64,000 nt of DNA, from NCBI RefSeq assembly GCF_000027125.1, contig NC_017626.1. One strand, written 5' to 3'. The position numbers were made by a program. Position 1 is the first letter of the stretch; each line of letters starts with the position of its first letter. This document shows positions 30,001 through 36,000 of the stretch, one piece after another. The stretch is from Escherichia coli 042 (GTDB lineage: Bacteria; Pseudomonadota; Gammaproteobacteria; Enterobacterales; Enterobacteriaceae).

Positions 30001-33000
30001 AAACCACGCGTAACCCCCACGGTAAGTGATTAATTTCGATTATTTTTCCCGGATGGAAAATTCTTAGAAACCGATCACATACAGCTGCATTTATTAAGGT
30101 TATCATCCGTTTCGCTGAAAAACATAACCCATAAAATGCTAGCTGTACCAGGAACCACCTCCTTAGCCTGTGTAATCTCCCTTACACGGGCTTATTTTTT
30201 ACGCATAAGCCCTATCCCTGATAACCGTCTTCCATTGACCACATCGATAGAATCTCCCTTCATAGCACGATGCCTTTCACACAACGGCATCGTGCTCGCC
30301 CAGGTTCCGGCTACGCACAGCCAGAACGCGCATGTTTGACGCTTACCAAAAAATGAACCTAAAGCATTGGAATATTTTTGACATCATTTTCTGATGGCGG
30401 CATAAAATAAAAATGCTGCTTTAGTTTCATCTATCTGTTTGTCATTATTACTCACATTCAATAATGGTGTTGAAGAACAACTATCAGAGATAAAAATGAA
30501 TGTGTACATCGTAGTCTTGAATCTATTCTCGCTCTCCACATTTGAATGTCAGACGAGCGACGCCATGTAATCCTGCACCTTCTGTCTTCAGGTCAACTAT
30601 CTGCATTTTTTTGCCCTGAGTAACACAGAAATGAGCTGCATCATTTTTTACTATATTTTCTGCACCAGAAATTCTGCCCCTGGCTAAAGAAGCTTCGGCT
30701 TCGGTGTAGTATTGGTTATCGAGTTTACGCTGAATATTACTTTTATATGCAAGACCAAATTTACCGATACTTGTCTCATCATTATGTACAGCACACCCAG
30801 ACATAAGAAAAACACTAATTAATGATATAGCAGCTATCTTTTTCATCTCACCTTCCCCCATTAAATACCAACGACACGCTCTGGTGTTTAAATATAATAA
30901 TGGCATGATTATTATAATTGAATAGGATTATAATAAATGTTCTGTACAACATTTCCTACATAAGTAGGAATTACATACACGGATGCCTTCCGGGTAACCC
31001 CATGGGGGGGTTAATATATTTTTAATAGTATATTGAAGATGCCACTGTTTAGTTGAATATTAGGTATATGCTCTTTTTTGAAATTTATCGGTGGCTGCCG
31101 TTAACATTCACTGTCCCCATTGCAAGCTCCTGGTGGTAACCACTGAATCCTCTATACTTGAACTGACTTTTTATCCTCCGACTTTCATCCTGTTCTGACT
31201 CCACCTTTTCTTTTCTGCTCTACACTATCTACAGACCAATCATAAAGGCACATACGATCATGGCAGAATTTCCCGCCAGCTTACTGATTCTTAATGGCAA
31301 AAGTACTGACAATCTACCCTTGCGCGAAGCAATTATGCTGTTGCGTGAGGAAGGAATGACGATCCATGTGCGGGTCACCTGGGAGAAAGGCGATGCCGCA
31401 CGATATGTAGAGGAGGCCCGGAAGTTGGGCGTCGCAACGGTGATTGCCGGTGGTGGCGATGGCACCATTAATGAAGTTTCTACGGCGTTGATTCAATGTG
31501 AGGGGGATGACATACCCGCGCTGGGAATTTTGCCATTAGGAACCGCCAATGATTTTGCCACCAGTGTAGGGATTCCTGAGGCACTGGATAAGGCGCTGAA
31601 ACTGGCAATTGCCGGTAACGCCATTGCGATAGATATGGCGCAGGTCAACAAACAAACCTGTTTTATTAATATGGCGACAGGCGGGTTTGGGACGCGTATT
31701 ACCACAGAAACGCCGGAAAAATTAAAAGCCGCGCTGGGTGGCGTCTCTTACATCATTCATGGCTTAATGCGCATGGACACTCTGCAACCGGACCGTTGTG
31801 AAATCCGCGGTGAAAACTTTCACTGGCAAGGTGACGCCCTGGTCATAGGTATTGGTAACGGGCGTCAGGCCGGTGGCGGTCAGCAATTGTGCCCGAACGC
31901 GTTAATTAACGATGGCCTGCTGCAACTGCGCATTTTTACCGGCGATGAAATTCTTCCAGCTCTCGTATCAACCTTAAAATCTGACGAAGATAACCCGAAT
32001 ATTATCGAAGGCGCTTCGTCGTGGTTTGATATACAAGCCCCACACGAAATCACTTTTAATCTTGATGGCGAACCGTTGAGTGGGCAAAACTTCCATATTG
32101 AAATACTTCCGGCGGCGTTACGTTGTCGATTACCACCAGATTGTCCATTATTGCGTTAATCAAACTATTCTCTCTTGAACCAGGGAGAATCCGTAATGCC
32201 GGATGCGGTGTAAAAACCTTATCCGGCATACAGAACAATACTACACCGTAATTAATTTCACCCGTGTCTTCTGCAATGCCAGTTTATCCACCTCTGACAC
32301 AGCATCGTCGGTAATAATAATGTCGATTTTTTCGATTGGCAGTACCTGATTAAAACCGCGACGATTAAATTTCGATGAATCGAGAACGGCAATCACTTTA
32401 TTTGCGGCTGTGACCATCGCCCCGCTAATCGAATAACCTTCATTAAAGGTCGTAATACCATTAACCGCATCAATACCATCAGCACCGACAAACATTAAAT
32501 CGGCATTAATATCCTGCAATGAACGCTCGGCAATGGAACCATGCATCGAGCGTGTTTTATGGCGGACGGTCCCACCACAGACGACCAGAGTAATGTCTTT
32601 ATTTTCGGAAAGGGCAAATGCTGCCGGGAGACTGTTGGTAATCACCGTGATATTTTTGGCGGTCATTAATCCTTCGGCGATAAGCATTGTGGTACTTCCG
32701 CTGTCGAGAATAACGGTCATCCCTTCGTGGATCATTTTGACTGCCGCCTGCGCTATTCTGTTTTTTGGCGCACTGGCGAGCTGAAATCGCTCTTTAAACC
32801 CAACTTCCTGGGTCTCGGTTTCACTATTACCGGACATTATTTTCGCCGCACCGCCATGAAAGCGCGTAACCACGCCTTTTTGTTCGAGAAAGCGCAAATC
32901 GGCACGGATTGTCGCTTCCGAGGCAGCAAATACTCCCGCCAGATCCTGAACAAGCACGGTTCCCTGTTCATTCACTAATTGGATGATCTTATTCCTTCGC

Positions 33001-36000
33001 TCGAATGAATTCATCGTCATTTACCCATATTCAATTGTGGCTAGTGTAAACGAAGGGGGACCATTGGTGAATGATCTGTTTTGCACAATACCGGGCCAGC
33101 ATCACGCTGGCCCGCGGTTTCAGGGAATGAGCAACACTTTGCCCGGCATAGCATTACGAGCGATGTCACGCACCGCCTGGGCGAAGCTTTCAAAGCTTCC
33201 ACGGTGAGCGATTAATGGCTCCAGGCTTAACTTACGTTCTGTCAGCAACCGGCTCGCCGTTTCCCACTCCTGCCCAGGCCAAGGGCTGGAGTAGTTCATC
33301 CAACTGCCGATAACCGTCAGCTCTTTACGTAATATTTTGCCAAACGTTGCCGATGTTAAATGCAAATCTTGATGCAACGTACCCACCAGCGCCAGCTGGG
33401 CATGAGGCCCGGCAATCTCTACCGCCAGTTCGACGGTTTGCGGGACGCCAGCCGTCTCGAGGATAAGCTGATTAAAGCGCAGCTCGCGTAAAATGCCCTG
33501 CATTTGCGGCGCGCTCATTTCAAGGCTGTTAAATGTTTGCATCGCACCGAAAGATTTTGCCAGTGCCAGTTTTTCTGAGCTAATGTCGATAGCCGTCACA
33601 CTCTTTGCTCCCAGCGCGACAGCGCACTGAATGGCCAGCAGGCCAATGGTTCCGGCACCAATAATAATAACGTTTTTATTCTCACAACCTTGCGCTAAAT
33701 GGAAAGCATGCAGGCCAACGGTAATCGGTTCAATAAAAGCCCCATCCTCAATAGGCATATCCGTGGGTAGAGCAAAGACATTTTTTCGGTTAACGACAAT
33801 ATATTCAGCAAATCCACCATCACGCCGCGAGCCAATAAAATCATATTTTGCGCACTGGGAATAAAACCCTTTCAAACACTCTGGACAAGTAAAACAGGGT
33901 AATAACGGCACACAGGCAACCGCATCGCCAGGGTGTAAATCATCAACACCGGATCCCACCGCATCAATATAGCCGCTAAATTCATGGCCTAACGTTATTG
34001 GATAATAATGTGCACCATTTTTAAATATCCTGGGTAAATCGGAACCACATAAGCCCGAGCTGGCAATTTTTACCCGTACCTCATCCTGATGTTTAATTTC
34101 AGGAATGACGCTTTCTGCAACGCGCACGATACCATCAGTATCATTCACCACTGATTTCATAAAAACTCCTGATTGTTAAGGGGGATAAACTCCCCCTCAG
34201 GTAAAAATTATTCTGCGAGAACGGCTTTCTCTTGTTTAATAAAACCACGCGCTCTACGCCAGGTCATGAAAATACCGGTAAGATAAATTGCGCCGATAAT
34301 AATGAAACCGGGACTATTTTGCGGGGAGAAAAGCTGAATCAGTAACCAGGTAATGGGAGAACCGCCCTGATCCATTGAAGCCACCATACCTCCGGCTTTT
34401 AACGCCCCAGCATTAGCCGCCAGTTGGGTGTGCAAACCAATAGTTTGCGTCGCGATCCACAGGGTGATGCTCATAATGATGACACCCGAGATCAAGGTGC
34501 GGAACAGATTTCCACGATGCACGGCAACTGCCATCGCCACAAAGAAGCCGATGGTGGCAAGATCGCCAAACGGCAGTACCTGATTACCCGGAACACAAAC
34601 AGCAATTAAAATGGTGAGCGGGATAAAAATCAGGCTTGCCGATACCACCGCCGTATGCCCCAGCAGTAATGCCGGATCCAGGCCAATCAGGAACTCCTGA
34701 CCGCCGAACTTCGCCTGCAAACGGCTACGCGCCTGCTTCGCAATAGGTGTTAAGCCATCCATGATGGGTTTAATCACCCGTGGCATCAGCAGCATAACTG
34801 CCGCCGTCTTTACCGCCAGCTGCAATACACCTTTGACATCGTAACCCGCGAGGATGCCGATAATCAGCCCCATCACAAAACCCACGGTGACAGGTTCGCC
34901 AAATGGGCCAAACTTGCGCTGAATATCATCGGCACTAAATTTAATTCGGTTAACGCCTGGGATTTTCTCGATAATGGCATCGACCAGCACCGCAATCGGC
35001 CCCATATACGCCGACGTACCGTGCGGAATAGCAATGCCTTCCAGCTCAAAGAAATTTCGGGTATCGCGGGCAAACCAGTCGCCGAGCTTATAAACAAACG
35101 CCGCGTGAATTACCACACCCGCCATCCCTATCATCCATGAACCGGTTGCCAGATGCAGCAATGCGCCGGTGAAGGTCATATGCCAGATATTCCAGATATC
35201 AACATTTACCACCCGCGTCATACGGGTCAGTAGCATCGCCACGTTAACCAGAATCGCAATCGGAATCGCCACCAGCGCAATTTGCGACGCCCAGGTCATT
35301 GGTGAAGAGCCCGGCCAGCCGACATCGACCACATGCAGATTCAGGTCAAAATTTTCCGCCATCGCTTTCGCCGCCGGGCCAATGGAATCCAGCATTAAGC
35401 CAATCACAAGGCCAATGCCAACAAAGCCAATCCCGATATGCAGGCCCGCTTTAAAGCAATCGCCTGCTTTCATGCCTAATATTTTAGAAAAAATAATGAT
35501 GACAATCGGCAGCATCACCGTAGGGCCGAGATCGAGAATATAACGCATGACTTCTGAAAACATAGGTCACCCCTGTAAGATAGTCAGAATTTTATTTTGT
35601 AATGCTTCGATACCGACACCAGAAACAAAAGGCATGCCGTGAACTAACGGAATATCGCCAAAACTACGATCCACTTTGGCAGTGGTGCATATCAAATGCA
35701 CGCCATCCATATAGGTTTCTATTTCATTAACCCGACACTGGATTAATTCAACAGGAATATTATGACTCTGACACAACTCTTTAATTTCTTCCGCCGCCAT
35801 CGTAGAGGTCGCAACCGCGCCTCCGCAAGCGACAATAATCTTGCGTTTCATAAATAGTCCTTTTTATTGTTACAGAGGGATTTATTCGTCTGAATCTAAA
35901 ACATACTTTGTGAAGTATTCCTTTAACTGGGTTTCAGGAAGAGTGATTAGTGTCTCGACGATATCGGGCTGTTGTAACTTGCCAAATAAACAGCGTAAAA

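What the first reader, a model, noticed from the sequence alone, without database searches (positions are those of the whole stretch)
32241..33020. gatR is intact (no IS insertion), predicting a repressible rather than constitutive gat operon
The DeoR-type repressor gene downstream of gatD is a continuous 259-aa ORF. In K-12 MG1655 gatR is, to my recollection, interrupted by an IS3 element, which makes gat expression constitutive there. This strain therefore probably retains regulated galactitol catabolism.
Basis: partly seen in the sequence, partly recalled or inferred. Interest (0 to 1): 0.3.

Follow-up and report, generated by a model that had tools for sequence, protein, structure and literature searches.

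The report
Ordinary intact gatR repressor gene
The galactitol-operon repressor gene gatR is whole in this E. coli-like sequence, but that is the normal wild-type state; the broken copy in laboratory strain K-12 is the exception.

Summary
Window 32241..33020 (minus strand) is an uninterrupted 259-codon ORF. RefSeq starts it at the second ATG (33014), giving 257 aa. It has a DeoR HTH domain and a DeoRC sensor domain. It lies between yegS and gatD, downstream of an intact gatYZABCD.

In MG1655, gatR is split by IS3E, at the site equivalent to window 32716-32718. The literature attributes K-12's constitutive gat expression to this insertion.

The 257-aa protein is identical to K-12 GatR with IS3E removed; all 18 nucleotide differences are synonymous. 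It is also identical to GatR of E. coli HS. That allele restored gat regulation when placed in MG1655 (PMC5850726). A repressible operon is therefore a well-supported inference, but it was not tested here.

The finding is not unusual:
- 4756 of 5426 complete E. coli genomes carry an uninterrupted full-length gatR.
- 342 carry the K-12-type gatR::IS3 junction; the listed examples are K-12 laboratory strains.
- 317 have no gatR match.
- The exact protein occurs on at least 1000 public contigs.

Verdict: real, correctly interpreted, already known, low interest.

The parts
32241..33014 (-). gatR coding sequence as annotated in RefSeq: 257 aa plus stop, a DeoR/GlpR-family repressor of the galactitol operon
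   Evidence: ORF. Domains. Same CDS bounds and WP_001295426.1 in 100%-identical DNA. 257/257 aa identical to reconstructed K-12 GatR and to HS and IAI39 GatR.
33015..33020 (-). Two extra in-frame codons (ATG ACG) that make the maximal ORF 259 aa; an alternative start codon, use unknown
   Evidence: Some database entries of this 90% cluster are 259 aa and others 257 aa.
32716..32718 (.). GTC triplet that is the target site of IS3E in K-12 (duplicated there); uninterrupted in the window
   Evidence: the K-12 flanks read GAATAACGGTC|IS3E|GTCATCCC. The window reads GAATAACGGTCATCCC.
33021..33119 (-). gatD-gatR intergenic region, 100% identical to K-12. It holds a 9-bp G+C-rich hairpin (about 33092-33114) with no U-run after it. 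No clear sigma-70 promoter was found.
   Evidence: Alignment; fold; promoter and terminator scan (no site in this interval).
32160..32240 (.). Convergent yegS/gatR intergenic region with two stable hairpins, including a REP-like GCCGGATGCGG...CCTTATCCGGC palindrome. Probably a bidirectional transcript end.
   Evidence: strand folding: -30.4 and -31.2 kcal/mol, z -4.8 and -6.7. The REP identification is from my own knowledge of REP consensus, not from a tool.
33120..34160 (-). gatD, galactitol-1-phosphate 5-dehydrogenase, intact
   Evidence: NCBIfam NF007642, 724 bits against cut-off 550. 4 aa differences from K-12 and no stops.
34208..35563 (-). gatC, PTS galactitol EIIC, intact (451 aa). The MG1655 reference copy is a frameshifted pseudogene.
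35567..36334 (-). gatB (35567-35851) and gatA (35882-36334), PTS EIIB and EIIA, intact
36344..38489 (-). gatZ (36344-37606) and gatY (37635-38489), tagatose-bisphosphate aldolase subunits, intact
38490..38605 (-). gatY promoter region. It holds a promoter-like -35 TCGACA / -10 CATTAT (38554..38525) and a CRP-like TGTGA-N6-TCTCG (38552-38567). An inverted 8-mer pair TGTCGTTT/AAACGACA (38569-38576 and 38500-38507) brackets them and is a candidate GatR operator pair (hypothesis only).
   Evidence: Promoter scan. Repeats (I5, I1). The block from ATTGTCG through TATCTCGA is invariant in six strains. The CRP-like assignment and the operator idea are my inference.

Best explanation
This is the wild-type, functional allele of gatR. 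GatR is the DeoR/GlpR-family repressor of the galactitol (dulcitol) PTS/catabolic operon gatYZABCD.

Proposed mechanism:
- GatR binds through its N-terminal winged-HTH to operators at the gatY promoter and blocks transcription.
- The C-terminal DeoRC domain binds an effector, galactitol or more likely a phosphorylated pathway intermediate, and this releases the repressor.
- The operon is therefore off without galactitol and on with it. It is probably also under cAMP-CRP control.

What is shown here: the gene is intact, its protein is identical to an allele with demonstrated regulatory function, and the operon and promoter core are intact. What is inferred: operator positions, the effector's identity, and actual inducibility in this strain.
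For: - The ORF is intact and has both DeoR-family domains.
- It is syntenic with K-12 gatR, between yegS and gatD.
- It is 257/257 aa identical to K-12 GatR after removing IS3E and one copy of the 3-bp duplication. All 18 nucleotide differences are at third codon positions and synonymous, which indicates purifying selection.
- It is identical to E. coli HS GatR, the same WP_001295426.1. Replacing MG1655's pseudogene with the HS gatR gave a strain that 'regulates the operon expression' (PMC5850726).
- CRISPRi silencing of intact gatR in the natural isolates LF82 and CFT073 changed fitness in the mouse gut. This indicates active repression there (bioRxiv 10.64898/2026.01.05.697630). CFT073 GatR differs from the window's by one residue, I196V.
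- All six structural genes are open.
- The gatD-gatR spacer is identical to K-12. The core of the gatY promoter is invariant across six strains.
- The same gat-locus allele, with 4 differences in 12 kb and none in gatR or gatYp, occurs in the human isolate LC-1302-2020.
- The exact protein is found on at least 1000 contigs.
Against: - No expression or phenotype data exist for this strain.
- GatR operators are not defined in any source I could read, so I cannot show they are intact.
- Three promoter-region bases (38508, 38579, 38580) differ from all five other strains aligned. They lie in or next to the candidate operator repeats.
- No convincing promoter for gatR itself was found, so how gatR is transcribed is unresolved.
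- The CRISPRi preprint suggests that some natural strains with intact gatR fail to de-repress in vivo. 'Repressible' therefore need not mean 'readily inducible'.
Confidence: 0.9

Rival explanations
1. gatR is intact but regulation differs from the canonical case, being leaky, constitutive or super-repressed. The cause would be lineage-specific changes in the gatY promoter/operator region rather than in the repressor.
For: The window has G at 38580, A at 38579 and T at 38508 where K-12, HS, CFT073, IAI39 and O157:H7 have other bases. These positions fall within inverted repeat I1 and next to I5. There is also a 2-bp indel and several SNPs upstream of the conserved core relative to K-12/HS.
Against: The indel and most SNPs are shared with CFT073 or IAI39, so they are ordinary polymorphisms. 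The block holding the -35, the CRP-like site and the upstream TGTCGTTT arm is invariant. The -10 hexamer is unchanged in the window and varies only in IAI39. The downstream arm is the same in all but O157:H7. The same promoter allele occurs in another natural isolate. The operator assignment is itself only a guess.
Confidence: 0.06
2. The ORF is a different DeoR-family paralogue, such as an AgaR- or SrlR-like regulator, and not the galactitol repressor.
For: NCBIfam has no GatR-specific model. The best hits are AgaR (232.9 bits) and SrlR (226.3 bits).
Against: Both hits are below their curated cut-offs of 260 and 350. Position, strand and neighbours are those of K-12 gatR b4498, and the protein is 100% identical to it. 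Sources name the exact protein 'DeoR family galactitol utilization operon repressor'.
Confidence: 0.01
3. The gene is intact but silent, being not transcribed or not translated, so the operon behaves as in K-12.
For: No sigma-70-like promoter was detected in the 99-bp gatD-gatR spacer. A strong hairpin follows gatD.
Against: The spacer is base-for-base identical to K-12's. In Sousa et al., a yegS-gatD PCR fragment from HS containing gatR sufficed to restore regulation, so the native arrangement expresses GatR. The hairpin has no U-tract, so read-through from gatD is plausible. Only synonymous change across about 2.3% nucleotide divergence argues that the gene is expressed and under selection.
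Confidence: 0.03

Closest known systems
GatR of E. coli HS / IAI39 (RefSeq WP_001295426.1), the wild-type galactitol operon repressor
   Same: 257/257 amino acids identical. Same position between yegS and gatD, with the same operon gatYZABCD upstream. The HS allele has experimentally shown regulatory function (PMC5850726).
   Different: Only synonymous nucleotide differences and a few promoter-region SNPs. The window also lacks a 78-bp REP-like copy downstream of fbaB that K-12 carries; the longer fbaB-gatY spacer in HS suggests HS carries it too.
gatR pseudogene of E. coli K-12 MG1655 (b4498, gatR::IS3E)
   Same: Same gene. After removing IS3E and one GTC copy, the K-12 sequence encodes exactly the window's protein. 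The gatD-gatR spacer is identical.
   Different: K-12 carries a 1258-bp IS3E at the site equivalent to window 32716-32718. This makes gat expression constitutive according to the literature. The window has no insertion. The MG1655 reference also has a frameshifted gatC, whereas the window's gatC is intact.
DeoR/GlpR family repressors (DeoR, GlpR, SrlR, AgaR, UlaR, FucR)
   Same: Same two-domain architecture, HTH_DeoR plus DeoRC, and about 250 aa. The closest solved structure by sequence is the E. coli DeoR C-terminal domain 7L6L, E 1.9e-11. It regulates a sugar or polyol catabolic operon.
   Different: It falls below the curated cut-offs of every paralogue-specific NCBIfam model. The effector and operators of GatR are not defined in any source I could read.

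Membership tests
DeoR/GlpR family transcription regulators | N-terminal DeoR-type helix-turn-helix DNA-binding domain (PF08220) | tested here: met
   residues 8-60, E 1.3e-16, 60.5 bits against gathering score 21.
DeoR/GlpR family transcription regulators | C-terminal DeoRC effector-sensing domain (PF00455) | tested here: met
   residues 85-238, E 2.5e-51, 174.2 bits against gathering score 31.8. The PDB sequence match to the DeoR C-terminal domain 7L6L has E 1.9e-11.
GatR (galactitol operon repressor) orthologue | Located immediately downstream of gatD on the gat strand, convergent with yegS | tested here: met
   for the window. Searches show the same arrangement in MG1655, HS, CFT073, IAI39 and O157:H7.
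GatR (galactitol operon repressor) orthologue | Sequence identity to the reference GatR | tested here: met
   257/257 aa to reconstructed K-12 GatR and to HS and IAI39 GatR. One substitution each against CFT073 and O157:H7.
GatR (galactitol operon repressor) orthologue | Uninterrupted reading frame, with no IS, frameshift or premature stop | tested here: met
   The K-12 IS3E target site 32716-32718 is continuous.
GatR (galactitol operon repressor) orthologue | Represses gatYZABCD and is relieved by galactitol | not testable with these tools
   Shown experimentally only for the identical HS allele placed in MG1655 (PMC5850726). It is inferred for this strain.
GatR (galactitol operon repressor) orthologue | Cognate operators present at the gatY promoter | tested here: inconclusive
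   The promoter core is conserved and an inverted 8-mer pair brackets it. However, the 8-mer is not enriched in the window (5 found against 2.4 expected). The papers that might define the operators were not available.
AgaR / SrlR (paralogous DeoR-family repressors) | Score at or above the curated NCBIfam equivalog cut-off | tested here: not met
   AgaR 232.9 bits against cut-off 260; SrlR 226.3 bits against cut-off 350.

The most novel reading that the evidence does not exclude
The lineage-specific bases at 38508 and 38579-38580 improve the symmetry of an inverted repeat (I1, TTTATTTTCGATTT / AATTCGAAAATTAA) that flanks the gatY promoter. They could change how tightly GatR represses, or how easily the operon is induced, in this lineage. 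That would be a natural cis-regulatory variant of gat control. It could matter because gat regulation is under strong selection in the gut.
Probability: 0.04. Interest if true: 0.2.

Novelty: already known. Interest (0 to 1): 0.05.

Why it matters
It matters little. The finding shows that this genome carries the normal, regulated form of the galactitol operon. It also recalls that K-12 is the atypical strain: in the complete-genome set, its gatR::IS3E lesion accounts for 342 of the 353 genomes where gatR matches only in part.

The practical value is for annotation and for interpreting phenotypes. Gat regulation affects fitness in mouse-gut colonisation experiments (PMC5850726; PMC10878103). 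A strain with intact gatR should therefore not show the rapid loss of gat function seen with K-12.

Tried and rejected
- The primary papers were not available: Nobelmann & Lengeler 1996 (PMC178577) and Nolle et al. 2017 on Salmonella GatR (PMC5287402). Operator positions and the original constitutivity data are therefore cited only second-hand.
- Rfam search of 31000-40000 at gathering thresholds found nothing.
- The sigma-70 and terminator scan found no promoter in the gatD-gatR spacer and no canonical terminator after gatR.
- NCBIfam has no GatR-specific model, so orthology rests on identity and synteny.
- I first assumed the window was the same strain as LC-1302-2020, because the 1.1-kb query was 100% identical. 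It is not. That strain has a ParD/ParE cassette between yegP and trhP that the window lacks. Over 22 kb the identity is only 98.8%.
- The 8-mer TGTCGTTT as a GatR operator word is not significantly enriched in the window, so it is kept only as a hypothesis.
- I did not run the large metagenome or genome-collection scans, or structure prediction. The answer did not depend on them.
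Full report
**Observation.** The window has a single uninterrupted ORF at 32241..33020 on the minus strand: 259 aa, ATG start (sequence). Pfam finds the two domains that define DeoR-family regulators: HTH_DeoR (residues 8-60, E 1.3e-16) and DeoRC (residues 85-238, E 2.5e-51). The gene sits 99 bp downstream of an ORF that scores 724 bits on the NCBIfam galactitol-1-phosphate 5-dehydrogenase (GatD) model. It is convergent with yegS, which scores 492 bits. RefSeq annotates 100%-identical DNA from strain LC-1302-2020 from the second in-frame ATG (window 33014). That gives 257 aa, WP_001295426.1, and MG1655 b4498 uses the same start. The difference is two codons and does not affect the conclusion.

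**The K-12 comparison.** NC_000913.3 annotates gatR as a pseudogene in two fragments separated by 'insertion sequence:IS3E' at 2170171-2171428. An MG1655-like derivative shows the same split around an IS3-family transposase. The K-12 flanks read GAATAACGGTC|IS3E|GTCATCCC. This is a 3-bp GTC target duplication that corresponds to window 32716-32718, where the window is continuous.

I removed IS3E and one GTC copy from the K-12 sequence and translated the result. It gives a protein identical at all 257 residues to the window's. The two genes differ at 18 of 774 nucleotides. All 18 differences are at third codon positions and are synonymous, which is a clear sign of purifying selection on a functional gene.

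**Literature on function.** Several papers state that the IS in gatR makes the gat operon constitutive in K-12, citing Nobelmann & Lengeler 1996 (PMC5850726; PMC4072538; PMC9189660; PMC10878103).

The most relevant is Sousa et al. 2017 (PMC5850726). They replaced the MG1655 pseudogene with the native gatR of E. coli HS and obtained a strain that regulates the operon. In mice, that strain gave rise to new gat-constitutive mutants through fresh IS insertions in gatR. I fetched the HS locus. Its GatR carries the same RefSeq protein accession, WP_001295426.1, and aligns 100% with the window's protein. IAI39 is also identical, CFT073 differs by I196V and O157:H7 by E241D.

A 2026 preprint reports that silencing gatR in LF82 and CFT073 is beneficial in the mouse gut. 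This implies that intact gatR actively represses in natural isolates.

**The rest of the system.** gatY, gatZ, gatA, gatB, gatC and gatD are all open reading frames of the expected length, with 2-6 amino-acid differences from K-12. The MG1655 reference gatC is a frameshifted pseudogene, whereas the window's gatC is intact.

The gatD-gatR spacer is base-for-base identical to K-12. It holds a G+C-rich hairpin with no U-tract and no recognisable sigma-70 promoter. gatR may therefore be read through from gatD, which would make it autoregulated. This is unresolved.

Upstream of gatY there is a promoter-like -35/-10 pair (38554..38525) and a CRP-like TGTGA-N6-TCTCG that overlaps the -35. The CRP assignment is my inference. 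The block from ATTGTCG through TATCTCGA is invariant among the window, MG1655, HS, CFT073, IAI39 and O157:H7.

An inverted 8-mer pair, TGTCGTTT/AAACGACA, brackets the promoter (38569-38576 and 38500-38507). It could be a GatR operator pair, in keeping with the multi-operator habit of DeoR-family repressors. However, the 8-mer is not enriched in the window, and I could not reach the papers that might define the operators. It stays a hypothesis.

Three bases in this region (38508, 38579, 38580) differ from the five other strains aligned. The same allele occurs in the human isolate LC-1302-2020, which differs from the window at only 4 of 12,001 positions across 30100-42100, none of them in gatR or the promoter.

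**How common is an intact gatR?** I searched 5426 complete E. coli genomes in RefSeq:

| State of gatR | Genomes |
|---|---|
| Match to gatR | 5109 |
| At least 80% of the gene in one uninterrupted piece | 4756 |
| Partial or split match only | 353 |
| K-12-type gatR::IS3 junction (200-nt query spanning it) | 342 |
| No gatR match | 317 |

The listed examples with the K-12-type junction are laboratory K-12 strains such as ER1709 and XL1-Blue. Nearly every interrupted gatR in the collection is therefore the single K-12 laboratory event. About 88% of genomes have the uninterrupted form. This count does not exclude point frameshifts. The exact 257-aa protein is recorded on at least 1000 contigs, the counting cap, under names such as 'DeoR family galactitol utilization operon repressor'.

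**Mechanism.**
- Shown: an intact two-domain DeoR-family protein, identical to an allele with demonstrated regulatory activity, next to an intact gat operon with a conserved promoter.
- Inferred from family knowledge: the N-terminal HTH binds operators at gatYp. The C-terminal DeoRC domain binds an effector, probably a phosphorylated pathway intermediate as in other DeoR/GlpR repressors, and this lowers DNA affinity. The closest solved relative of this domain by sequence is the DeoR C-terminal domain 7L6L, E 1.9e-11. CRP supplies catabolite control.
- Not shown: effector identity, operator positions, and inducibility in this strain.

**Comparison and membership.** The gene meets both defining domain criteria of the DeoR/GlpR family. 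It meets all sequence and synteny criteria for being the GatR orthologue. It fails the curated cut-offs for the paralogues AgaR and SrlR. The functional criterion cannot be tested with these tools.

**Verdict.** The feature is the ordinary wild-type state of a well-known gene. The interest lies entirely in K-12's peculiarity, which is long established. Novelty: already known. Interest: about 0.05.

Noticed in passing
window 38665/38666 (between fbaB stop and the fbaB terminator hairpin 38610-38633): Relative to K-12 MG1655, the window lacks a 78-bp REP-like unit (GCTGCATCCGGCAAC...GTTTACA) in the fbaB-gatY spacer. The spacer is 227 bp here and 307 bp in K-12. The gap lies upstream of the fbaB terminator, so it should not touch the gatY promoter.
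   Followed up: partly
window 28522-28667; L002 4872-5466; L006 2402-2996: LC-1302-2020 and IAI39, whose gatR DNA is closest to the window's, carry a ParD/ParE toxin-antitoxin cassette between yegP and trhP (yegQ). The window does not; its yegP-trhP gap is only about 146 bp, as in O157:H7.
   Followed up: partly
window 24000-46000 and 30100-42100: No complete RefSeq E. coli genome reaches 99% identity over this 22-kb stretch; the best is 98.8%. Yet the 12 kb around the gat locus differs from LC-1302-2020 at only 4 positions. This looks like a recombination mosaic, or a lineage that is poorly represented among complete genomes.
   Followed up: partly
L005 13115-13573 (CFT073): CFT073 has an IS200C transposase gene inserted between fbaB and gatY, just upstream of the gatY promoter region. 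The window has no such insertion.
   Followed up: no
window about 57900-64000 (1265-aa ORF at 57706-61503): Downstream of metG the window stops aligning well with E. coli HS; only patches at 80-92% identity remain. This is where HS has its DUF4132 genes (the unnamed ECHS_RS11155 and yehI), so it is a locally very divergent region.
   Followed up: no
NZ_CP026085.1 (record labelled DH5alpha, 4.83 Mb), hit H22: A RefSeq record named DH5alpha shows an uninterrupted gatR, unlike the K-12 derivatives checked here (MG1655, AML002_ev01, ER1709, XL1-Blue). The record is also larger than MG1655 (4.64 Mb). It may be mislabelled, or it may be a real difference.
   Followed up: no
PMC5850726, section 8 versus NC_000913.3 annotation: Sousa et al. 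2017 describe the K-12 gatR lesion in one place as 'an IS1 insertion'. The MG1655 annotation and other papers say IS3E. This is a small inconsistency in the literature.
   Followed up: yes
window 32160-32240: The 81-bp spacer between the convergent yegS and gatR genes folds into two strong hairpins on either strand (z -4.8 and -6.7). One resembles a REP palindrome. Neither has a U-tract, so the simple terminator scan did not report them.
   Followed up: partly
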